NCBI GenBank assembly: GCA_964532425.1
Contig: CAZHIA010000003.1
Coordinates: 201,748-265,747 of the forward strand
Direction: 5' to 3'
Source of the DNA: an uncultured Candidatus Saccharibacteria bacterium
Lineage (GTDB): Bacteria; Patescibacteriota; Doudnabacteria; UBA920
Length of the DNA stretch: 64,000 nucleotides
In this document: one piece after another, positions 6,527 to 45,389 of the stretch
Layout: every line of letters begins with the position of its first letter
Position numbering within the stretch: the stretch's first letter is position 1
Program-made: the position numbers and the translations under genes
Notes under the pieces: model-generated
The model's database searches: none
What the model was told of the DNA's origin: nothing
What the model saw: only the letters and a program-made list of their open reading frames with translations

Positions 6527-6576
6527 TGGGGTGTCGCCAAGTGGTAAGGCATCCCGATTGGATCGGGGCATTCGAA
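6527..6576 (+). tRNA. tRNA-Pro(UGG)-like 5' segment (acceptor 5' strand, D arm, anticodon arm, variable loop, first 3 nt of T stem); interrupted
   Basis: TGGGGTG-TC-GCC-AAGTGGTAA-GGC-A-TCCCG-ATTGGAT-CGGGG-CATTC-GAA then diverges; anticodon TGG at 6559-6561. Confidence 0.45.
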
Positions 6577-6581
6577 AGAGT

Positions 6582-6821
6582 ATGTACTCGGTATATATCT
6601 TAGAGAATCCCCTAGGGAAGCTCTACATTGGGCAGACCGATAATGTTGCGGAAAGATTGGAAAGGCACAATCGGAGCGGTACAAATTATACATCCCACAA
6701 AGGTCCCTGGAGAATAATTTATACAAAAGAGTTTTTGACCCGTTCCGAAGCGCTAGGGTATGAAAAGTATTTAAAAAGTCTTAAAAGTTCCCGGTATATA
6801 AAAACTGAGATCGTTCGTTAA
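6582..6821 (+). CDS. GIY-YIG nuclease, YhbQ/UPF0213-like (79 aa)
   Basis: VYILENPLGKLYIGQTDNVAERLERHN = GIY-YIG core (YIG, Arg, Glu), aligns with E. coli YhbQ; AAGAG SD-like upstream; ORF begins inside the tRNA fragment. Confidence 0.75.
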   Translation: MYSVYILENPLGKLYIGQTDNVAERLERHNRSGTNYTSHKGPWRIIYTKEFLTRSEALGYEKYLKSLKSSRYIKTEIVR

Positions 6822-6930
6822 TTTTTTTCTTCCACCCTATTGGGGTGTCGCCAAGTGGTAAGGCAGCGCCCTTTGGAGGCGCCATTCGAAGGTTCGAATC
6901 CTTCCACCCCAGCCAGGTGGAAGAAAAAAA
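6822..6930. repeat. perfect 15-bp inverted repeats TTTTTTTCTTCCACC / GGTGGAAGAAAAAAA bracketing tRNA-Gln
   Basis: IR-L 6822-6836, IR-R 6916-6930; exact reverse complements. Confidence 0.8.
6841..6915 (+). tRNA. tRNA-Gln(UUG), CCA encoded
   Basis: cloverleaf: acceptor TGGGGTG/CACCCCA (U1-A72), G73, D arm GCC-AAGTGGTAA-GGC, anticodon arm GCGCC-CTTTGGA-GGCGC (TTG 6873-6875), T arm GAAGG-TTCGAAT-CCTTC. Confidence 0.85.
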
Positions 6931-6946
6931 TTAGCCAATGCATCTA

Positions 6947-7011
6947 GTCAGTGGTAAGACATCCCGATTGGATCGGGACATTCGAAGGTTCGAATCCTTC
7001 CACCCCAGCCA
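6947..7011 (+). tRNA. tRNA-Pro(UGG)-like 3' segment (D arm through CCA) lacking a matching 5' acceptor strand
   Basis: GTC-AGTGGTAA-GAC-A-TCCCG-ATTGGAT-CGGGA-CATTC-GAAGG-TTCGAAT-CCTTC-CACCCCA-G-CCA; 7 nt at acceptor position (ATGCATC) cannot pair with CACCCCA. Confidence 0.45.
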
Positions 7012-7046: not shown

Positions 7047-7292
7047 ATTATGCGGACAAGATGGTGGTACCTTTCTCGATTTCGCACCGCCAATAATGAT
7101 GCTGATATAATTTCTTGTTTCTAACCTCTCTCTGTCTCTCCCCATTTCATTGGGGAGAGGACATACTAAGAAGCCAATCTATAATTACATATGAACTAGC
7201 GCGAGTGGCCAGCATAAAAGATACCCTGGACATGAGCTTCTATATATGGTATCCTGTGAGGTCTTAAAAAGACTTTCGAACAAGGAGGTAGT

Positions 7293-7667
7293 ATGGAAAC
7301 AGCTCACACAGGTGACAACTTACCGCATTTCCAAATCTGTGGGTGCGGCAAGCATGGAAGAGTAGTATTTCCCGACGGCAGGACCGGAGGGGAATTCGCA
7401 TCACAGGCACAAGGCAGACTTTGGATGGAGTACGCGGCACTGGTCGACGCATTCCAAAACGTGGATATCTTCCCCGAGGGAAAACTACAGCACCTCTTCG
7501 AAGAGATTCAAATCTCCCCGCTCCCCGACCAAATCGAACCCGACGCTTACATTCTCAAGGTAGTCGACACCTGGAATGCGGCCAAACTCCACCAACCCAG
7601 CCTGAACCCGGTTAATTTCCACCATGTCATGGACCGGCTGTGGGATTATAATGCCTTTGAGCAGTAA
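7293..7667 (+). CDS. hypothetical protein
   Basis: SD AAGGAGG then ATG; 124 aa; higher-GC block. Confidence 0.6.
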   Translation: METAHTGDNLPHFQICGCGKHGRVVFPDGRTGGEFASQAQGRLWMEYAALVDAFQNVDIFPEGKLQHLFEEIQISPLPDQIEPDAYILKVVDTWNAAKLHQPSLNPVNFHHVMDRLWDYNAFEQ

Positions 7668-7675
7668 CCAGCCTC

Positions 7676-7708
7676 GGCGGCGCGATCACCTCGCGCCGCC
7701 TTTATTTT
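7676..7708 (+). terminator. rho-independent terminator
   Basis: GGCGGCGCGA-TCACC-TCGCGCCGCC then TTTATTTT. Confidence 0.6.
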
Positions 7709-7711
7709 AAA

Positions 7712-7738
7712 TCTCCTCCATGGGGACCATGGAGGAGA
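7712..7738. repeat. 12-bp perfect palindrome TCTCCTCCATGG-GGA-CCATGGAGGAGA
   Basis: member of CCATGG-cored hairpin family. Confidence 0.6.
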
Positions 7739-36948: not shown

Positions 36949-38175
36949 TTATTTCAATGCTTCTATCCCCGGCAGTTTCTTGCCGGCTAAATATTCCAGC
37001 ATGGCGCCGCCACCGGTGGAGACATGGTCGATATTCTCAAACTGGTGCGATTGCCTCACCGCATCCACCGTTTCTCCGCCACCGACTACGGCATAAGCCT
37101 TGCGGCCGGCAACACCGCCGATGACGCGCGCCAAAGCCATAGTAGCCGTGCGGAACGGCTTGGCTTCAAAATAGCCTAGCGGGCCATTCCAGACGATGGT
37201 TTTGGCTGCTTTGAGCTCTTCCGCATACATGAGAATAGTCTTCGGCCCAACATCCAGGATCATCTCTTGCTTGCCCACCTCATAGGGCGTACGGACCCGA
37301 ATCGAATCGCGGCTCATATTCTTGTCTGCCACTACGACATCCACGGGCAACAGCAGTTTATCCTTGAAATTCTTCGAGATCTCAAAAGCAATGCGTTCCG
37401 CCCCGTCTTCCGCTTTCGACAATCCGACTTCCATACCTTTCGCTTTGAAGATCAATGTAGACAATCCCCCGCCAAGCAGGATCTTGTCAGCCTTTTCCCC
37501 GAGATGGGTAAGCGTCTTGGCTTTGTCGGAAATTTTAATGCCACCCATGAGCAGGACAAAGGGTTTCTTGTGCTTATGAGTCACGACATCAAGCGATTTA
37601 ATCTCTTGCTCCAGTAACGGGCCACAATATGACGGTAATAATTTCGTAATGACAGCTGTCGACGCGGCAGCCCGATGGCACACGGAAAAAGCGTCGTTGA
37701 CATAGACATCACCCAAACGAGCCAGACACCGCGCGAAATATTTGTCATTCTCCTCTTCACCCTTGTAGAAGCGGAGGTTTTCCAGCATGACAATATCCTT
37801 GGCCGTAATATTCTTGAGCTGGTCAGCGTGCAGGTCAGCCATAATGTTCCCGGTGTAGAAGATGAGATGGCTAATGGGGTACTCAGGCAGCGGGTGATGA
37901 GTTTCCAAAAACTTATACCCTAAATGCCCGGCAAGGACCTTGGCCACGGGCTTCAACGACAAACTCTTATCCCGGCCCTCGGGCCTTCCCAAATGCCCGC
38001 AGAGAATAATGCGATTATTCCCTTCCTGAAGCATCCGAATGGTCGGAATAATGGAGGCAATGCGAAAATCATCCGCCACCTTGCCGGTCTTATCGTCAAT
38101 CGGAACATTCACATCCACGCGCAGAAGGATGGTTTTATTTTTTAGGGTAGTGGGTTTTAGATACTTGATGGACAT
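36949..38175 (-). CDS. pgk: phosphoglycerate kinase
   Basis: MSIKYLKPTT...RVDVNVP; GGGA/GGGETV nucleotide-binding motifs. Confidence 0.9.
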   Translation of the reverse strand: MSIKYLKPTTLKNKTILLRVDVNVPIDDKTGKVADDFRIASIIPTIRMLQEGNNRIILCGHLGRPEGRDKSLSLKPVAKVLAGHLGYKFLETHHPLPEYPISHLIFYTGNIMADLHADQLKNITAKDIVMLENLRFYKGEEENDKYFARCLARLGDVYVNDAFSVCHRAAASTAVITKLLPSYCGPLLEQEIKSLDVVTHKHKKPFVLLMGGIKISDKAKTLTHLGEKADKILLGGGLSTLIFKAKGMEVGLSKAEDGAERIAFEISKNFKDKLLLPVDVVVADKNMSRDSIRVRTPYEVGKQEMILDVGPKTILMYAEELKAAKTIVWNGPLGYFEAKPFRTATMALARVIGGVAGRKAYAVVGGGETVDAVRQSHQFENIDHVSTGGGAMLEYLAGKKLPGIEALK

Positions 38176-38655
38176 ATGATACCGATATACGGATTTGAAT
38201 ACTGATGATACGGATAAATACGGATCACCCCTTCCAGTTATCTATCCTCACAATACGCTTGGGTTTGATGTATTTATCCCGAAAATTGACCAGGATTCCA
38301 AGTTTTAGACCACTCTCTTGAAGGTACCGTTGTACTTGATAATAAACGTCTTTTGTTAATAACCGCTTAGCCTTAAACTCGAGTAGCACCAGCCCTTTCA
38401 CTATACCATCTGCAATATTATTTGAATCCCCGATTCTCACTTCCGTTTCAAACCCTATTCCTTTTTCTTTGAATAAGCGCTTAACCACCTCTACGTATTG
38501 CTTCTCTCGAGCATATGGGCCGACTTCGTTATGTGCCGCAAACAGTACACCATTAATGTCAAACGTCAAATCCTCGTAAATCAGTTTACGTTCTCTAGGT
38601 TTGATATCCGTATTATCAGTATCATCCGTACCCATCAGTATATCCGTATCATATT
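38176..38655. mobile_element. GxxExxY-gene cassette flanked by imperfect inverted repeats of ATACGGAT/CAGTAT units
   Basis: flanks 38180-38224 and 38598-38652 are reverse-complement related; inserted between gap and pgk. Confidence 0.5.
38225..38635 (-). CDS. GxxExxY-family protein (PD-(D/E)xK nuclease-like)
   Basis: HNEVGPYAREKQYVEVV ... VLLEFKAKRLL ... GLKLGILVNFR; paralog of 42768..43127. Confidence 0.65.
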   Translation of the reverse strand: MGTDDTDNTDIKPRERKLIYEDLTFDINGVLFAAHNEVGPYAREKQYVEVVKRLFKEKGIGFETEVRIGDSNNIADGIVKGLVLLEFKAKRLLTKDVYYQVQRYLQESGLKLGILVNFRDKYIKPKRIVRIDNWKG

Positions 38656-40092: not shown

Positions 40093-41109
40093 CTATTTTC
40101 TATTTTTATATACCTCATCTATTACTCGCTGTTTCACTTTATGATCCGTGATAAGCACCGGCTGGTACGACTTCTTTTTCTTTAACTGAGTTTCTATGAC
40201 GTGCCGGCTCAAGAGTCCAGCTTGCGGCCCGATATGCTGAACTACACTCGCCGCATTGACCGTTCCCCACCGTAACGCTTCCCGATGCGGCAACCCGTAC
40301 GCCAGAGCCGCTATGTACGCCGTAGTGAATGAGTCCCCTGCCCCGGTCGCCTCGACGCGAGGACCGGGAAATTCCGGAATGTAATAAAAACCCTCGCTGC
40401 TCAAACTGAACGCGCCGCGCTGGCCATCGGTCAGCACAACCGCCTGCGGTCCAAGCTTGACCAGGCGTCGGCACAATTCTTCCGGGTCACGGCCGCAGTC
40501 ACCCACCCAGCCTTGCGCCTCTTCGACATTCAGTGACAGCAATGCGGTCCGCTTGAGTATCTGTTCATTAGCCTTGAGACCCTTGCGAAGCTGGAACGTG
40601 CCGGGATTGAATCCGAGCTTGGCCTCATACCGGTCAATATATTTGGCCAGGTCGCCATAGATCTTTTCAAAACCATTAGCCAGGCTGGTTAAATAGATCC
40701 AGCGTGCAGGTACGAGGTTCGGCAGTTTGTAAGTCCGGTGCTCGTGATACACAAATATCGTTCGCTCACCATCGTGGGAGAGCACGGTCGAGGCATTTGT
40801 TCCGTGGCGTTCATCAATCACGATAAACCTTGTCGAAACCCCTTCCTTCTGCATTTTATAGATTATTTCGCGGCCGCCGACATCGTGGGCCAGCACCGTA
40901 TAGAACGCCGTTTTAAGACCCAGCCGCGCCGAACCAACCGCGTTATTGGCAGCATTGCCCGCCACGGTGCGGTAAAATTCCTGAACCGGCAGTTTGTCGC
41001 CCCAGCTGATAATCGCTTTCTGCTGGCCCTCGATATCCTTGATCTCGACATCTTTAACGAACAGGAATGTATCAATGGTCGCATCGCCGATGGAAATAAT
41101 GTCAAACAT
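40093..41109 (-). CDS. PfkB-family carbohydrate kinase (ribokinase/fructokinase-like)
   Basis: MFDIISIGDATID; GGNAANNAVG; GAGDSFTTAYIAALAYG anion-hole/catalytic motifs. Confidence 0.75.
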   Translation of the reverse strand: MFDIISIGDATIDTFLFVKDVEIKDIEGQQKAIISWGDKLPVQEFYRTVAGNAANNAVGSARLGLKTAFYTVLAHDVGGREIIYKMQKEGVSTRFIVIDERHGTNASTVLSHDGERTIFVYHEHRTYKLPNLVPARWIYLTSLANGFEKIYGDLAKYIDRYEAKLGFNPGTFQLRKGLKANEQILKRTALLSLNVEEAQGWVGDCGRDPEELCRRLVKLGPQAVVLTDGQRGAFSLSSEGFYYIPEFPGPRVEATGAGDSFTTAYIAALAYGLPHREALRWGTVNAASVVQHIGPQAGLLSRHVIETQLKKKKSYQPVLITDHKVKQRVIDEVYKNRK

Positions 41110-41283
41110 GACAAATAGTGACTAGCGATTAATGAATAGTAAACAGTAAATAGTTTCGGACAATTAAATTACAGAACACCCACGACTACACTCAAGACTT
41201 CTTAGTACGTTCCCTCTCCAATTCATGGACAAGGGTACCCCAAATTTGCCAAAGGCAAATGAGAGGAATCCCCTGGAGAGAGG

Positions 41284-41786
41284 CAGGGAGAGGTTAACAT
41301 ACGACCTTCCTGATGGTTTCCAATATCCCTTCCATGTTACTATCTAAATCATTATTCCAGAATCTTAAGACCGTATACTTGTGTTCTTCTAAAAACTCTT
41401 GTTTGCTTTTGTCCTTCTGTGAGACTCCTATGGTACCATGTTGGCTGCCATCGAGTTCTATAACCAATCTTTTGCTCTGGCAACAGAAATCTACTACATA
41501 ATCGCCAATTGGCACTTGCCTCTTAAATTTAAGACCATTAAACCTGTTCCCTCGCAAAAAATACCATAACTTAGCTTCCCACGGGGTGGATTTCTTTCTG
41601 AGAAGCTTTGATACTATTGTCAGGTTTTTCCCTTCCAGAATCTAACCTCTCTCCTGTCCTCTCTCCATGCAATGGAGAGAGGAACCTTCTACACAGACTT
41701 TCTGATATTTATAATTCGCATAGATAGTATTAATTTCCACAGTACGTCCCCTCCCCAATGCATGGGGAGGGACAGGGAGAGGTTAA
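41284..41786. mobile_element. DUF559-gene cassette bounded by 14-bp direct repeats CAGGGAGAGGTTAA
   Basis: direct repeats at 41284-41297 and 41773-41786; internal CTCC...CATG...GGAG palindromes (41659-41682, 41746-41773). Confidence 0.5.
41294..41557 (-). CDS. DUF559 (Vsr-like endonuclease fold) protein, N-terminally truncated
   Basis: VPIGDYVVDFCCQSKRLVIELDGSQH ... VLRFWNNDL; TTG start. Confidence 0.6.
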   Translation of the reverse strand: MRGNRFNGLKFKRQVPIGDYVVDFCCQSKRLVIELDGSQHGTIGVSQKDKSKQEFLEEHKYTVLRFWNNDLDSNMEGILETIRKVVC

Positions 41787-42763
41787 AGCCGGGGTTTGTT
41801 TTTCCTCCCCATTACCTTCTTTACCGCACTGACAATGGCTTTTGTACCCATTCCGTATTTTTCGGCCAGTTCATTAGGCGTACCTGACTCGCCAAACACA
41901 TTCGGCATGCCGACCATTTCGATAGGCACGGGGCAGTGCTGTGCCAGCACCTCGCAGACCGCACTACCGCAGCCAGCCATTGTCTGGTGTTCCTCCAGTG
42001 TAACTACGGCCCCGCATTTTTGTGCTGCTGCCACAATCGTCTCAACATCGATCGGTTTGATGGTGTGATTATTGATCACCATCACGCTGAGACCTTCTTT
42101 TTCGAGTTCCCGGGCAGCAAGCAGTCCGCTGTAGAGTATCGGCCCGCTGCCGATTATCGCCGCGTCAGCTCCCTCCCGAAATACGACAGCCTTGCCGATC
42201 TCGAACGGAGCGTCCTCAGTGGTCATCACGGGCGACTTTTCCCGACCCAGTCGAAAATATACCGGTCCGGTAGTTTCAGCGGCTGCTATGGCCGTTTTTT
42301 TGGCTTCTACGGCATCACACGGAACGATCACGGTCAAATTCGGGAGGACTCGGGTAATTGCCACATCTTCGAGCGCCTGGTGAGTCGCCCCGTCAGGGCC
42401 AACCGAGACTCCGGCGTGGCAACCGGCAATCTTTACATTGGCCTGGCTGTAACATACGCTCACGCGCAGCTGATCCCAGGACCGTCCCGGTGAGAATACG
42501 GCATATGAGGTCACAAACGGAATCTTTCCGGCCAGCGCCATCCCCGCTGCCACACCCATCATATTCTGTTCAGCTACTCCACACTCAACGAACCGTTCCG
42601 GGTATTGTTTAGCAAACGCTTCAACGCGGGTGCTTTCTGCCAGATCCGCGGTCAGCACAACCACATTCTCGTCGGCCGCCCCGGCTTCCAATACACCATC
42701 ACCAAAACCATTACGAGTAGGGACTTGTTCGATGTCAGGTTGTCCAATCTTAGAGTTCAACAT
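41783..42763 (-). CDS. transketolase, C-terminal (pyrimidine-binding) subunit
   Basis: PTRNGFGDGVLEAG...; start ATG lies inside the left TIR of the adjacent cassette. Confidence 0.8.
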   Translation of the reverse strand: MLNSKIGQPDIEQVPTRNGFGDGVLEAGAADENVVVLTADLAESTRVEAFAKQYPERFVECGVAEQNMMGVAAGMALAGKIPFVTSYAVFSPGRSWDQLRVSVCYSQANVKIAGCHAGVSVGPDGATHQALEDVAITRVLPNLTVIVPCDAVEAKKTAIAAAETTGPVYFRLGREKSPVMTTEDAPFEIGKAVVFREGADAAIIGSGPILYSGLLAARELEKEGLSVMVINNHTIKPIDVETIVAAAQKCGAVVTLEEHQTMAGCGSAVCEVLAQHCPVPIEMVGMPNVFGESGTPNELAEKYGMGTKAIVSAVKKVMGRKNKPRL

Positions 42764-43208
42764 AATCCTAATTCCCCGAATTAATATCCAAATTCCCCGA
42801 ATAACTGCTATTAAGTACGCGCTTTGGAGACAATCGATACGCTCGAAAATTAACAAGCAATCCTAATTCTAATTTAGATGCTGTTAAATATCTTTGCATC
42901 TGCAAATAATCTTCTTTAGTAATATATGGTTTTGCTTTGAGATCAATAACTATTTTATTCTCAGCCAAGAAATCAACCCTGTTTCCCTTAGGTGATCCTT
43001 CTATGAATAGTTTAATTTCGTACTCCCGTCGATACTCAATTTGTTCTTCTATCAACATTTTTTCGAATTCATCACAATACTGTCTTTCCGACGCAAAACG
43101 TCCCAGCTTTTTATGGACCTTAAACACAATCCAACAATTTTATATGATAATTCTGGCTCCACTATTTGAGGCATTTGGATTGCAGTATTCGGGGAATTAG
43201 GATTATGT
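42761..43208. mobile_element. 448-bp TIR-bounded cassette encoding a GxxExxY protein
   Basis: TIR CATAATCCTAATTCCCCGAAT at 42761-42781, reverse complement at 43188-43208 (21 bp perfect; ~26 bp with internal duplication on left). Confidence 0.7.
42768..43127 (-). CDS. GxxExxY-family protein (PD-(D/E)xK nuclease-like)
   Basis: VDFLAENKIVIDLKAK ... ELGLLVNFR; C-terminal 12 aa encoded by the TIR. Confidence 0.6.
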   Translation of the reverse strand: MFKVHKKLGRFASERQYCDEFEKMLIEEQIEYRREYEIKLFIEGSPKGNRVDFLAENKIVIDLKAKPYITKEDYLQMQRYLTASKLELGLLVNFRAYRLSPKRVLNSSYSGNLDINSGN

Positions 43209-45389
43209 TTCCTTTCCTTGTAAAAACCCTATTATCTGCTCCCGGTGCCTGCGATAAATAATGGATACGCCGACCAAAATAAACCCGAGGGCTATGAACG
43301 ATACAACTCTAAAGCTCAAGTCCAATACGAGGAGATCGTACAAAAAGACCTTCAGAATAGTCACGGCGAACAAGACGACGGCCAGTTTTTTAAGCAATGA
43401 GTTGTTGCGGAAGACTCCCCAGAACATCATCACCGCCGAATACACGATCCACCACAGGCTCAAGATGAGGTTGCGGGCATTTTTTGAATCAAAACCCCGG
43501 TAATGCTCCACAATCTCCCATGAGACAGCTAGCCACAACAACAAACTCGCTCCTACATTGAACACATCACTCAGCTGATTCTGACCCTCGCCGCGGCGGT
43601 AGATATACGCGGCAAACAGCAAGGCCGCAGCCTCAAGTACCATTAATTCGAATTTGGTATTCATCAAGAAAACCGGGTTAGCGTCATATGGCAGCACGAG
43701 AACGCGTACCAGGCTAAACACCAGTAAGATCGCGGCCGTAGCCATAAGCAGCTTTCGTTTGGCCAATGCGGCAATCAGGAGCAACAGCGCCGGATACAAC
43801 ACCCACCATAACGCCATCCACTGGCTGCGAGCCAAGTCAGTCGTCCCGACCAGGGCCGCGGCAATATCCCAGCTGACTCCCGCCCACAGGACCAGGATTG
43901 CAACAATCTCCATAGCATCCCGCGCCTTGTCTCCGGTTTGCGGGTCCGGATACCGGCTATAGAGCCAGCCAGCATACAAAAGCGCCAAGGTATCGGCAAA
44001 CATCAGACCGAATTTGGCATTGAACAGGAAAACGAGATCTTGTGACGTATACGGCTCCACGACGGATTTGAACAGCGCCAAGAACAGAATCACCACACTC
44101 CACATGCGGAGCTCTTCGCGCTTCAATAATGCGCCGATCGTAATACCAAACAACCCCAAAGCCAACCAAGCGAGAGCCAAGGCCTTCCCCTGCCATTCCC
44201 AACCGGCGGCACAGACCAGCATGACAGCTCCCACAATCGATAATCCGTAGTTCAGCATACGGTATTCCAGCCGGTCAACTAAGGCATAAGCAAACAGGAA
44301 CAGCACACCGCCGAGCAACGCCACCGGTGCAAGCAGCGAATGATAGTTCTCATTAAGAAGCAGCGCGATGGATATAAAATAGAACAAGCCGGACAGAGTC
44401 GCTACAATTGAAGCATCTTTTTCGAAATTTTTCGGAAGCACCCCCTGTGCGTGATGATACCTGGTCAAAAAACCGAGACCGAGCACGAATAGCACAGACG
44501 TGAAAATGATAAAGAACAGGCTCGGATAGGTATTGCCCGCATTCGAGTAAGCGGAACCCCAGACGGCAAAATCGAGCGTTGCCCCAACCAGGGCTAGCAG
44601 CATCAATTCCAGCCAATATTTTCTCGCCAGAACGACCAACACAGCAATGTTAAGCAGCGTAAGATAAATGAGCAGCGGCCCCTGCTGGTCATGACCGGTA
44701 GACAAAACGAGCGGTGACCCATAAGCCCCAAAAAATGCCAATGCCCCCAAAGCCAGAGAAGAATGCCGATATGCCAGCCAGACGGATAGCGCGGCAACAC
44801 CGAGCATAAGCACGAACGCCAGCGGCTGGGGCAGCAATCCATAAAAATGGAAGCCGGCATACAAAGTGAAATACAACAAGGCAATACCGCCTCCTGTAAT
44901 GGCTAGCGCGTAATTACCATACCGTTCCTTCCACAATTCTCCAAGATAGATCAGCAATCCGCCAACGGCCAATCCGAGCGCAATACGGACCCACTCATTG
45001 ATCCAGCCCATGTCAACGGCGATCTTATAAAAAAACGCAACGCCTAAAACCAGAGCAGCGACCCCGATCTTGTTGAGCCAAGAAATCGCGCGGTCCGTAT
45101 TCATCTCGCTGTGCCGTTCCTCAGGCCTGGCAGAGACAGGGGCTTGGAAGGTCCGTGCTTCCGGCTCGCGGTGCGACGGAAAAGGCGTATGATGAATTTC
45201 CGGCTGCTGCAGCGCGGCATTGTATTCGGCTTCGGTCGGCGGACGTGGCGCAGGGCGCGGCGGAGCGGACGCAAGTCCCTGGCTCCGCAGACGCGCTTCC
45301 AATTCATGTACGCGATTGTTGATACTGGCAATCCAAAAGATCAGAATAAGAACGACAACGAACAGTACGAATTCAATGAATCCGGACAT
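43203..45389 (-). CDS. DUF2339-like polytopic membrane protein
   Basis: 728 aa, >20 predicted TM helices in repeated blocks; stop codon overlaps right TIR. Confidence 0.55.
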   Translation of the reverse strand: MSGFIEFVLFVVVLILIFWIASINNRVHELEARLRSQGLASAPPRPAPRPPTEAEYNAALQQPEIHHTPFPSHREPEARTFQAPVSARPEERHSEMNTDRAISWLNKIGVAALVLGVAFFYKIAVDMGWINEWVRIALGLAVGGLLIYLGELWKERYGNYALAITGGGIALLYFTLYAGFHFYGLLPQPLAFVLMLGVAALSVWLAYRHSSLALGALAFFGAYGSPLVLSTGHDQQGPLLIYLTLLNIAVLVVLARKYWLELMLLALVGATLDFAVWGSAYSNAGNTYPSLFFIIFTSVLFVLGLGFLTRYHHAQGVLPKNFEKDASIVATLSGLFYFISIALLLNENYHSLLAPVALLGGVLFLFAYALVDRLEYRMLNYGLSIVGAVMLVCAAGWEWQGKALALAWLALGLFGITIGALLKREELRMWSVVILFLALFKSVVEPYTSQDLVFLFNAKFGLMFADTLALLYAGWLYSRYPDPQTGDKARDAMEIVAILVLWAGVSWDIAAALVGTTDLARSQWMALWWVLYPALLLLIAALAKRKLLMATAAILLVFSLVRVLVLPYDANPVFLMNTKFELMVLEAAALLFAAYIYRRGEGQNQLSDVFNVGASLLLWLAVSWEIVEHYRGFDSKNARNLILSLWWIVYSAVMMFWGVFRNNSLLKKLAVVLFAVTILKVFLYDLLVLDLSFRVVSFIALGFILVGVSIIYRRHREQIIGFLQGKET

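What the first reader, a model, noticed from the sequence alone, without database searches (positions are those of the whole stretch)
41284..41786. DUF559 (Vsr-like endonuclease) gene cassette with 14-bp direct repeats inserted between the PfkB kinase and tktC
CAGGGAGAGGTTAA occurs at 41284-41297 and 41773-41786, bracketing an N-terminally truncated DUF559 ORF (TTG start, 87 aa) plus ~230 bp. That ~230-bp stretch contains the CTCC...CATG...GGAG palindromes CCTCTCTCCATGCAATGGAGAGAGG (41659-41682) and TCCCCTCCCCAATGCATGGGGAGGGA (41746-41773). Direct repeats flanking a lone restriction-endonuclease-fold gene suggest site-specific or homing-like insertion. Together with the two GxxExxY cassettes, three small nuclease-family selfish units have colonised a single conserved metabolic operon.
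Basis: partly seen in the sequence, partly recalled or inferred. Interest (0 to 1): 0.6.

Follow-up and report, generated by a model that had tools for sequence, protein, structure and literature searches.

The report
DUF559 cassette flanked by BoxC-like repeats
A small nuclease gene sits as a lineage-specific insert between two sugar-metabolism genes, and the "direct repeat" around it is the tail of a hairpin repeat (the CPR version of E. coli's orphan BoxC/PIT "triplex" repeat) that brackets DUF559 genes in many phyla, so gene and repeat probably form one selfish unit.

Summary
The 14-mer direct repeat is real and exact, but it is not a target-site duplication. It is the purine-rich tail of a ~46-nt module: a pyrimidine arm, a loop, a purine arm and a purine tail ending in GGTTAA. 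Three copies cluster at this locus. One is inverted just upstream of the ORF. One covers the ORF's stop codon. One extra copy covers the tktC stop codon.

The DUF559 ORF is not truncated. It has 115 codons and matches Pfam DUF559 end to end. ATT replaces the ATG that homologues use.

None of 57 Doudnabacteria relatives from reference genomes has DUF559 at this junction, and 30 have a gap under 140 nt. One metagenomic relative has it there.

Homologues 65-71% identical lie in other operons, between the same inverted modules. Across 72 DUF559 genes from several phyla, 65% have the 5' module and 57% the 3' module. ORF-less and internally deleted derivatives exist.

The module matches E. coli BoxC/PIT/TM_ECO, a repeat with no known partner gene.

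Best reading: a compact selfish DUF559 element with hairpin-bearing terminal inverted repeats, here nearly silent or decaying. That the nuclease moves it is inferred, not shown.

The parts
41741..41790 (+). Module R. An extra, solo 3'-type copy of the hairpin+tail module, read hairpin to tail on the + strand. It contains the right-hand 14-mer (41773-41786) and the TAA stop codon of tktC (41783-41785 on the minus strand).
   Evidence: Covariance-model hit of 49 bits, E=1e-11. Sequence. No relative has such a module after tktC.
41686..41740 (-). AT-rich spacer between modules R and M.
   Evidence: R, the spacer and M fold into a single long hairpin of -81.8 kcal/mol, z=-8.4.
41638..41690 (-). 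Module M, the 5' module of the cassette: hairpin TCCTCTCTCCAT/ATGGAGAGAGGA plus tail ACAGGAGAGAGGTTAG. It supplies the Shine-Dalgarno-like GGAGAGAGG 4 nt before the ATT and the in-frame TAG.
   Evidence: Covariance-model hit of 40.2 bits. It occupies the same position and has the same sequence type as the 5' modules of L066, L067 and L068.
41294..41641 (-). Full-length DUF559 (Vsr-fold) endonuclease ORF of 115 codons plus stop. ATT at 41639-41641 stands where homologues have ATG.
   Evidence: Pfam PF04480, 125 bits, profile positions 3-107 of 109. Alignment with 19 homologues, in which all 43 invariant columns are kept. PDB 3HRL E=2.6e-26 and 3R3P (I-Bth0305I) E=9e-4.
41204..41297 (+). Module L, the 3' module of the cassette. 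It contains the left-hand 14-mer (41284-41297) and the TAA stop of DUF559 (41294-41296 on the minus strand). Its hairpin is interrupted by a 45-nt insertion.
   Evidence: Partial covariance-model hit at 41266-41301, 18.6 bits.
41229..41273 (.). 45-nt insertion, with its own small hairpin, inside the loop of module L.
   Evidence: Comparison of L with R (D1, D3, I4).
7117..7167 (-). Solo copy of the same module, 34 kb away and not next to any DUF559 gene. Its outer flank ACATACTAAGAAG is shared with module L.
   Evidence: Covariance-model hit of 36 bits.
41783..42760 (-). tktC (transketolase C-terminal half), the upstream flanking host gene. Its stop codon lies in module R.
   Evidence: Pfam Transket_pyr and Transketolase_C.
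40093..41109 (-). PfkB-family kinase, the downstream flanking host gene.
   Evidence: Pfam PfkB.

Best explanation
The interval 41110-41786 is a lineage-specific insertion of a compact DUF559 element. It is a 115-codon Vsr-fold endonuclease ORF enclosed tightly by two inverted copies of a ~45-nt module. The module consists of a pyrimidine arm, a loop, a purine arm, a short linker and a purine tail ending in GGTTAA.

This module is the A/T-richer counterpart of the E. coli BoxC/PIT/TM_ECO 'intrastrand triplex' repeat.

Roles of the modules (shown from sequence):
- The 5' module supplies the ribosome-binding site, GGAGAGAGG, and an upstream stop codon.
- The 3' module contains the ORF's own TAA.
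- A third, same-orientation 3'-type module (R) lies on the tktC stop codon.

Inferred steps:
- R is most likely what remains of a tandem or neighbouring cassette copy, as seen intact in L118 and L093.
- The gene has no promoter of its own that I could find, so it is probably read through from tktC.
- Translation should be strongly damped, because R and M pair into one long hairpin that buries the ribosome-binding site.
- Together with ATT in place of ATG, this makes the copy nearly silent or at the start of decay.
- The element family spreads because the DUF559 nuclease nicks or cuts at or near the modules. The break is then repaired by copying from another module-flanked copy, with the modules acting as portable homology arms. 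This resembles homing.
- ORF-less doublets and solo modules are the non-autonomous or decayed derivatives.
For: Insertion:
- 30 of 57 relatives have a tktC-PfkB gap under 140 nt, none has DUF559 there, and none has a module after tktC.

Same cassette in other contexts:
- Homologues 65-71% identical lie between fusA and tuf (L068), between a small membrane ORF and tktN (L066), between tktC and PfkB (L067), and after dnaX (P0001).
- Every one of these for which DNA was available has the hairpin plus GGGGAGAGGTTAA directly before the ATG, and TAACCTCTCCCC plus a hairpin at the stop.

Association statistics:
- The covariance model R1 finds 135 modules in 517 kb of DUF559-selected loci, but only 3 in 700 kb of PfkB-selected Doudnabacteria DNA. 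Two of those 3 flank the L010 DUF559 gene.
- 46 of 71 genes have a 5' module, 41 of 72 a 3' module and 28 of 64 both. 90 of 131 non-overlapping hits abut a DUF559 ORF in the canonical orientation.
- A strict pattern scan found 116 modules, against 0 in reversed-sequence controls.
- In the whole window, with filters off, there are only 4 modules, and 3 of them are at this locus.

Independent test set:
- In 8 annotated plasmid or chromid loci, 6 have modules next to the gene. S. meliloti shows the same module order as the window: a 3'-type module, a 5'-type module, the ORF, then a 3'-type module.

Hairpin structure:
- 91% of cells are paired. 60 cells show compensatory changes against 15 in shuffles (0 of 500 shuffles reach the observed value). 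Almost all of these changes are C-G to U-A, so the pyrimidine/purine asymmetry of the arms is kept.

Derivatives:
- L067 1998-2105 is a 5' and a 3' module with only 8 nt between them, at the position where L066 has the full cassette.
- L118 has two internally deleted mini-cassettes that keep both ORF termini, in tandem with a full copy.
- E. coli BoxC pairs have the same tails-inward architecture.

Copying within a genome:
- The two 5'-type modules of L067 are 51 of 52 nt identical.
- Its 3' module travels with a 30-nt flank to an unrelated downstream ORF.

Nuclease family:
- PDB 3HRL scores E=2.6e-26, and the homing endonuclease I-Bth0305I scores E=9e-4.
- Vsr-like free-standing homing endonuclease genes with upstream hairpins that sequester the ribosome-binding site are documented (PMC2677866).

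Link to the E. coli repeat:
- R1, built without any E. coli sequence, scores E. coli TM#9 at 47.8 bits.
- TM#9 lies inside the ycjD-linked variable segment, which is present in 3378 of 5426 E. coli genomes.
Against: - No nucleotide-level empty site is available for this genome. The closest relative is only 77% identical in PfkB.
- There is no evidence of any kind that DUF559 binds or cuts the module. No strand-transfer enzyme is present.
- The association is not universal. About 35-45% of genes lack a detectable module on a given side, and two cyanobacterial plasmid copies have none. In Deinococcus the tails point outward.
- Holder et al. found no link between TM_ECO and mobile elements or flanking gene function, and no triplex formation in vivo (PMC4666352).
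- The copy in this window may be dead: it has an ATT start, a buried ribosome-binding site and a disrupted 3' hairpin.
- L067 has DUF559 at the same junction, so vertical inheritance with many losses is not excluded.
Confidence: 0.55

Rival explanations
1. The 14-bp direct repeats are a target-site duplication, or the halves of an attachment site, made when a site-specific or transposase-type event inserted a truncated DUF559 gene.
For: The repeat is exact and statistically unexpected, and it brackets the gene.
Against: - The 14-mer is the inner end of a conserved module that occurs at DUF559 genes in unrelated loci and phyla.
- Cassettes in L066, L067 site 2 and L068 have no flanking direct repeat.
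- The repeat unit is about 46 nt including the hairpin, and a fourth copy lies 34 kb away.
- No transposase or integrase is present.
- attC-type core sites are absent.
- The ORF is full length.
Confidence: 0.04
2. The modules are only cis-acting expression signals of an ordinary, non-mobile gene. On this view the 5' hairpin plus tail is a translational attenuator and ribosome-binding site, and the 3' hairpin is a transcript stabiliser. The patchy distribution would come from ordinary gene gain and loss.
For: - The tail carries the Shine-Dalgarno sequence 0-4 nt before the start codon in the CPR copies.
- Structures that bury the ribosome-binding site are predicted.
- Phage homing endonuclease genes use such hairpins (PMC2677866).
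Against: - It does not explain why the 3' end is a sequence-level inverted copy of the 5' end.
- It does not explain why ORF-less doublets and internally deleted mini-cassettes persist and duplicate.
- It does not explain solo copies far from any DUF559 gene.
- It does not explain why the stem sequence, and not only the pairing, is conserved from CPR to Proteobacteria.
- PIT elements showed no promoter or terminator activity (PMC4666352).
Confidence: 0.2
3. BoxC-type modules are autonomous, structure-prone repeats that cause local instability. DUF559 would be a host 'caretaker' nuclease that processes the hairpin or triplex structures. On this view its gene is found next to the modules because they accumulate there or regulate it, not because it mobilises them.
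For: - TM_ECO loci are rearrangement hot spots, and the motif stalls polymerases in vitro (PMC4666352).
- Vsr itself is a repair nickase.
- E. coli has a single ycjD gene but 23 TM copies.
Against: - The ORF is enclosed tightly and in a fixed orientation by the modules, with the start and stop codons inside or abutting the tails.
- Deletion derivatives keep the ORF termini.
- Near-identical cassettes occur in different operons.
- 38% of E. coli genomes lack ycjD, which is odd for a caretaker function.
Confidence: 0.15
4. The locus is only a dead relic: a pseudogenised DUF559 with decayed repeats and no present activity or function.
For: - ATT stands in place of ATG.
- A 45-nt insertion disrupts the 3' hairpin.
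- The Logan annotation of the identical locus calls no gene there.
Against: - The 115-codon frame is intact and retains all 43 columns that are invariant among homologues.
- AUU is a known, though weak, bacterial initiator (general knowledge: infC).
- This reading concerns the state of this copy, not what the element is, so it is compatible with the main explanation.
Confidence: 0.35

Closest known systems
BoxC / PIT (potential intrastrand triplex) / TM_ECO repeats of E. coli and more than 260 other genomes (Hoyne and Maher 2000; Holder et al. 2015, PMC4666352)
   Same: - The three-block design is the same: pyrimidine arm, loop, purine arm, 2-3-nt linker, purine tail. Compare CCCTCGCCCC-TTT-GGGGAGAGGG-TTA-GGGTGAGGGG with CCCCTCCCCA-ATGCA-TGGGGAGGGA-C-AGGGAGAGG.
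- A model built only from DUF559-flanking modules scores E. coli copies at 37-48 bits.
- Both are intergenic.
- Both occur as inverted pairs with the tails pointing inward.
   Different: - The copies here are A/T-richer and end in GGTTAA.
- Copy number is low: 4 in 64 kb, of which 3 are at one locus.
- They are physically coupled to a DUF559 ORF. The published work reports no partner gene and no link to mobile elements.
REPtrons: RAYT (TnpA_REP) genes flanked by inverted REP/REPIN palindromes (own knowledge: Nunvar 2010; Bertels and Rainey 2011; Ton-Hoang 2012)
   Same: A single small gene bracketed by inverted copies of a hairpin repeat that also occurs as solo copies and doublets elsewhere.
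   Different: - The enzyme is a Vsr-fold PD-(D/E)XK nuclease, not an HUH/Y1 transposase.
- The repeat has a third block (the tail) and a strict pyrimidine/purine asymmetry.
- There are far fewer dispersed copies in this genome.
Free-standing homing endonuclease genes, including the Vsr-like/EDxHD family (I-Bth0305I; Dassa 2009, PMC2677866; Taylor 2011, PMC3239194)
   Same: - A small nuclease ORF wedged between conserved genes, with patchy distribution.
- An upstream hairpin that can hide the ribosome-binding site.
- Detectable sequence similarity to I-Bth0305I (E=9e-4).
   Different: - Classical free-standing homing genes rely on homology of the flanking host genes and carry no terminal inverted repeats.
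- Here the element brings its own conserved ends and has MITE-like derivatives.
- It is not in an intron, an intein or a fractured gene.
MITEs and their autonomous parent transposons
   Same: Terminal inverted repeats, together with internally deleted and ORF-less derivatives that keep both ends (L118, L067, E. coli pairs).
   Different: - No DDE or other known transposase.
- No target-site duplication seen.
- The ends are hairpin-forming triplex-type motifs.

Membership tests
DUF559 (Pfam PF04480; Vsr-like restriction-endonuclease fold) | Profile match above the curated cut-off over the whole domain | tested here: met
   125.2 bits against a cut-off of 20.6. Residues 7-113 match profile positions 3-107 of 109. 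PDB 3HRL scores E=2.6e-26.
DUF559 (Pfam PF04480; Vsr-like restriction-endonuclease fold) | Conserved family residues retained (N-terminal TPWExKLW motif, D51, E62/D64, H68, RFWN) | tested here: met
   All 43 columns that are invariant across the 20-sequence alignment are present in the window protein.
Vsr-like/EDxHD homing endonucleases (I-Bth0305I type) | Sequence relationship of the catalytic domain | tested here: met
   The profile of A1 hits 3R3P ('Mobile intron protein') at E=9e-4 over positions 56-112.
Vsr-like/EDxHD homing endonucleases (I-Bth0305I type) | Residence in a group I intron, an intein or a fractured gene, and cleavage of the element-free allele | tested here: not met
   The ORF is intergenic between intact tktC and PfkB. 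Cleavage cannot be tested with these tools.
BoxC / PIT / TM_ECO repeat | Pyrimidine arm, purine arm and purine tail in this order, with short loops | tested here: met
   Modules R, M and 7k show this order. Model R1 scores the window copies at 36-49 bits and E. coli TM copies at 37-48 bits.
BoxC / PIT / TM_ECO repeat | The tail mirrors the purine arm (purine-motif triplet rule) | tested here: inconclusive
   Columns 60/68 covary as the rule predicts (112 G/G, 11 A/A, 4 discordant). Columns 56/72 do not (21 G/A).
BoxC / PIT / TM_ECO repeat | Forms an intrastrand triplex as single-stranded DNA | not testable with these tools
   Shown in vitro only for the E. coli sequence (PMC4666352).
REPtron (RAYT + REP) | Gene flanked by inverted copies of a palindromic repeat that also occurs elsewhere | tested here: met
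   Modules M and L flank the ORF, and R and 7k are extra copies.
REPtron (RAYT + REP) | The gene encodes an HUH/Y1 (IS200/IS605-like) transposase | tested here: not met
   The only Pfam matches are DUF559 and MTES_1575.
IS element or transposon with target-site duplication | Short direct repeats of target DNA immediately outside the terminal inverted repeats, and a transposase gene | tested here: not met
   The direct repeat is part of the module itself. L066, L067 and L068 show no duplication outside the modules. No transposase domain was found.
Integron gene cassette | attC site with complementary R''/R' cores (RYYYAAC...GTTRRRY) 3' of a promoterless ORF | tested here: not met
   By inspection of the sequences, GTTAA is present on the inner side only and there is no complementary RYYYAAC partner. 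No integrase was seen in the ORF list of 38.5-45 kb.
MITE-like non-autonomous derivative | Both terminal repeats kept and the ORF lost or internally deleted | tested here: met
   This applies to the family, not to the window copy. Examples are L067 1998-2105, the L118 mini-cassettes and the E. coli hrpB-mrcB and ygfF-gcvP pairs.

The most novel reading that the evidence does not exclude
DUF559 proteins are the missing trans-acting partner of the BoxC/PIT/TM 'intrastrand triplex' repeats. On this reading a Vsr-fold nuclease recognises the hairpin/triplex-type module and drives its own spread, and that of ORF-less doublets, by break-induced copying. That would define a new class of bacterial mobile element, a nuclease-repeat pair analogous to RAYT-REP but unrelated to it. 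The class would be present from CPR bacteria to E. coli (ycjD) and would account for the genomic instability reported at TM loci.
Probability: 0.3. Interest if true: 0.85.

Novelty: new variant of a known kind. Interest (0 to 1): 0.68.

Why it matters
BoxC/PIT/TM_ECO repeats have been known in E. coli since the 1990s and occur in hundreds of genomes. No function, origin or partner protein has been assigned to them. DUF559 is a very large 'unknown function' family with a solved structure and no known substrate.

The evidence here ties the two together, with start and stop codons sitting inside or abutting the repeat tails, in organisms as far apart as Doudnabacteria, Sinorhizobium and Neisseria. 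That gives both orphans a concrete, testable hypothesis: does YcjD or another DUF559 protein bind or cut BoxC, and does BoxC-linked instability depend on it?

For CPR genomics, it also explains part of the clutter of small nuclease genes inside core operons as compact selfish cassettes that bring their own ribosome-binding site and stop codons.

Tried and rejected
- Target-site duplication: rejected, because the repeat is an internal part of a conserved module.
- Integron attC site: rejected, because the complementary core sites are absent.
- Intrinsic terminator: rejected. No T-run follows the hairpins, and the terminator scan found only a weak unrelated site.
- Own promoter in the 57-nt spacer: nothing convincing on the gene strand.
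- Known RNA family: no Rfam 15 match above chance for the window region or for 9 loci.
- Defence-system membership: PADLOC gives only domain-level similarity to DpdF and Hhe.
- Nucleotide-level empty site for this genome: not obtainable. The best relative is 77% identical in PfkB, and the only exact match is the same locus in a Logan contig.
- The 7k solo module as the end of a decayed DUF559 gene: the upstream frame reads SRFRTANNDADIISCF*, which recalls RFWNNDLD...C*, but tblastn gives nothing significant. I left this as a hint only.
- A longer direct repeat beyond the module (AGAAAGTCTGTGTAG against AGAAGTCTTGAGTGTAG): MAFFT did not support it.
- E. coli ycjD as a clean filled/empty pair: the ycjD-less O157 allele is a larger replacement, so it is not a simple empty site.
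- Structure from the MAFFT alignment A3 with RNAalifold: the alignment was out of register. I replaced it with a hand-given structure, the covariance model R1 and a re-alignment.
Full report
**The observation**

The 14-mer CAGGGAGAGGTTAA is present exactly at 41284-41297 and 41773-41786. It has no other exact copy in the 64 kb, and no shuffle reached the observed count. Both palindromes are there, one base off the stated coordinates. Two parts of the description do not hold.

- The ORF is not truncated. Read on the minus strand, the frame is open from an in-frame TAG (41642-41644) to the TAA at 41294-41296. That is 115 codons, and Pfam DUF559 covers profile positions 3-107 of 109 at 125 bits.
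- Nineteen homologues 60-71% identical, nearly all 114-116 aa long, begin MLEGK exactly where this frame reads ILEGK. ATT at 41639-41641 therefore stands where the family has ATG.
- The repeat is not 14 nt. It is a ~46-nt unit, AGTACGT-CCCCTCCCCA-ATGCA-TGGGGAGGGA-C-AGGGAGAGGTTAA.
- R (41741-41786) and L (41204-41297, with a 45-nt insertion in the loop) are direct copies of this unit.
- M (41638-41690) is an inverted copy.
- A fourth copy lies at 7117-7167.
- A covariance model run with filters off finds exactly these four copies in the window.

**Anatomy in gene orientation**

All genes here are on the minus strand. The order is:

1. tktC, whose TAA stop lies in the tail of R;
2. the hairpin of R;
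3. an AT-rich 57-nt spacer;
4. the hairpin of M;
5. the tail of M, ACAGGAGAGAGGTTAG;
6. ATT and the DUF559 ORF, whose TAA lies in the tail of L;
7. the interrupted hairpin of L;
8. 95 nt;
9. PfkB.

**The organism and the empty sites**

PfkB relatives place the window in Candidatus Doudnabacteria (CPR), at 62-79% protein identity.

- Among 57 loci with both genes, 30 have a tktC-PfkB gap under 140 nt, often 8-25 nt or overlapping.
- None has DUF559 there, and none has a module after tktC. The whole 673-nt interval is therefore lineage-specific.
- The other 27 loci carry different small genes in the same gap: 23S_rRNA_IVP four-helix-bundle proteins, GIY-YIG nucleases, pilin-like proteins and a small membrane ORF.
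- No relative closer than 77% exists in the collections, so a nucleotide-level empty site is not available.
- One metagenomic relative, L067, also has a DUF559 cassette at tktC|PfkB. It ranks only 13th of 48 in housekeeping identity.

**The same cassette elsewhere**

The nearest DUF559 homologues sit in different operons:

- between fusA and tuf (L068);
- between a membrane ORF and tktN (L066);
- between tktC and PfkB (L067);
- after dnaX (P0001).

In all three loci with DNA, the ORF is preceded by [CCCCTCCCCA-loop-TGGGGAGGGG]-GCAGGGGAGAGGTTAA-ATG. It ends in TAA-CCTCTCCCCAG-[CCCTCTCCAT-loop-ATGGAGAGGG]. The modules therefore travel with the gene.

They provide the ribosome-binding site and a stop codon at each end, and they mark where similarity between loci starts and stops.

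**Generality**

A metagenome scan returned 80 further DUF559 loci, 38-66% identical, from CPR and high-GC soil bacteria.

- The flanks show the same design in G+C-rich form: CCCTCTCCCC-loop-GGGGAGAGGG-TT-GGGGTGAGGGG upstream and its reverse complement downstream. A second small hairpin is sometimes inserted.
- A strict pattern scan found 116 modules in 1.3 Mb and none in reversed-sequence controls. Of these, 85 abut a DUF559 ORF in the expected orientation.
- The covariance model R1 found 135 hits in 517 kb of DUF559-selected loci.
- R1 found only 3 hits in 700 kb of PfkB-selected Doudnabacteria DNA. Two of those 3 flank the DUF559 gene of L010.
- By this model 46 of 71 genes have the 5' module, 41 of 72 the 3' module and 28 of 64 both.
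- In an independent set of eight annotated plasmid or chromid loci, six have modules beside the gene.
- Sinorhizobium meliloti reproduces the window's three-module order. Two cyanobacterial plasmids have none.
- The hairpin is 91% paired, with 60 compensatory cells against 15 in shuffles. Almost all are C-G to U-A changes, so one arm stays pyrimidine and the other purine.

**Derivatives and signs of copying**

- L067 1998-2105 is a 5' module, 8 nt and a 3' module, at exactly the place where L066 has the full cassette.
- L118 carries two internally deleted mini-cassettes that keep the first and last ~40 nt of the ORF and both modules. They stand in tandem with a complete copy.
- L093 has three 3'-type modules in tandem upstream of the cassette and two downstream.
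- Within L067 the two 5'-type modules are 51 of 52 nt identical.
- The L067 3' module shares a 30-nt outer flank, including ATGAAAATTTTTA, at two loci whose downstream ORFs are unrelated.
- In the window, L and the distant 7k copy share the outer flank AC(G/A)TACTAAGAAG.

These patterns resemble those of a transposon family with MITE-like offspring and local tandem duplication. On that basis R is most simply the surviving end of a neighbouring copy, but this is inference.

**What is known**

- Rfam 15 has no matching family.
- A text search for the sequence found Holder et al. 2015 (PMC4666352). The module is the E. coli BoxC repeat, later called PIT (potential intrastrand triplex) and TM_ECO.
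- That repeat has 23 copies in MG1655, including five inverted pairs. It occurs in more than 260 genomes.
- It forms a stable triplex in vitro as single-stranded DNA, but no triplex was detected in vivo, and an earlier study cited in the paper found no promoter or terminator activity.
- It is associated with strain-to-strain rearrangement. The authors report no functional pattern among flanking genes and no link to mobile elements.
- The paper never mentions DUF559 or ycjD, and no paper in the library links them.
- R1, which was built without E. coli sequences, scores TM#9 at 47.8 bits and the hrpB-mrcB and ygfF-gcvP pairs at 37-47 bits. Those pairs have the tails-inward, ORF-less architecture.
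- TM#9 lies 168 nt downstream of ycjD, the E. coli DUF559 gene. A degenerate hairpin sits at the ycjD stop codon, and a duplicated 45-nt fragment of the ycjD 3' end lies in between.
- ycjD is present in 3378 of 5426 complete E. coli genomes. In a ycjD-less O157 strain the variable segment includes TM#9, although the allele is a larger replacement.

**How it most likely works**

Shown:

- the architecture;
- the lineage-specific presence;
- the gene-module association;
- the existence of deletion derivatives;
- the fold family, with 3HRL at E=2.6e-26 and the homing endonuclease I-Bth0305I at E=9e-4.

Inferred:

- The gene is read through from tktC, because no convincing promoter lies on its strand.
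- Initiation depends on the tail's GGAGAGAGG. R and M pair into a single hairpin of -81.8 kcal/mol (z=-8.4) that buries this site.
- Together with ATT this makes the copy nearly silent or newly decaying, although the ORF keeps all 43 family-invariant columns.
- For the family, I propose that the nuclease acts on the modules and that breaks are repaired from other module-flanked copies. This would be a homing-like process with portable homology arms.
- Hairpins upstream of free-standing homing endonuclease genes are a documented precedent for the regulatory part (PMC2677866).
- Whether the tail follows the triplex mirror rule is unresolved.

**Verdict**

The 'selfish cassette' intuition is right. 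The 'direct repeat means an insertion signature' argument is wrong.

The broader result is that DUF559 genes are bracketed by BoxC/PIT-type modules across phyla. This appears not to have been described, and it is testable.

Noticed in passing
window 42759-42781 and 43187-43209 (also 42786-42803 and 43163-43180): The GxxExxY gene at 42768-43127 has a perfect 23-nt terminal inverted repeat plus sub-terminal copies. The outer ends of the repeat supply the TAA stop of DUF2339 on one side and the ATG of tktC on the other.
   Followed up: partly
window 38174-38216 and 38605-38654: The second GxxExxY gene (38225-38635) is also bracketed by inverted repeats (21 nt at 90% and 18 nt at 94%). Their sequence differs from that of the first cassette.
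   Followed up: no
window 6527-7010: A GIY-YIG ORF (6531-6821; Pfam) lies between a tRNA-like 5' fragment and an intact tRNA-Gln (6841-6915). A further tRNA-like 3' fragment lies at about 6940-7010. This looks like a nuclease insertion that duplicated part of a tRNA gene.
   Followed up: partly
window 7706-7735: The palindrome TCTCCTCCATGG-GGA-CCATGGAGGAGA lies just after ORF 7293-7667. It has the CTCC..CATG..GGAG flavour of the modules but no purine tail, and the covariance model does not hit it.
   Followed up: no
window 41229-41273: A 45-nt insertion with its own small hairpin (AAATTTGCC/GGCAAAT) lies inside the loop of module L. Its origin is unknown.
   Followed up: no
L002-L064, tktC-PfkB junction: The same junction is a hot spot in relatives. 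It holds 23S_rRNA_IVP four-helix-bundle genes in 4 loci, GIY-YIG genes in 3, pilin-like genes in 5 and a small membrane ORF (MKIFSLQSK...) in 9.
   Followed up: partly
L118 780-1790 and L093 160-1040: These loci carry tandem arrays. L118 has two internally deleted DUF559 mini-cassettes plus one full copy, with a 284-nt period. L093 has five 3'-type modules around one gene, with a period of about 104 nt.
   Followed up: partly
L150 (E. coli MG1655 1351040-1351406): Downstream of ycjD there is a degenerate hairpin at the stop codon, a duplicated ~45-nt fragment of the ycjD 3' end, and BoxC/TM#9. ycjD is absent from 38% of complete E. coli genomes.
   Followed up: partly
L067 4349-4420 and 1626-1700: The 3' module travels with a 30-nt flank that includes ATGAAAATTTTTA. 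This flank provides the start codon and first four codons (MKIF) of two otherwise unrelated downstream ORFs.
   Followed up: partly
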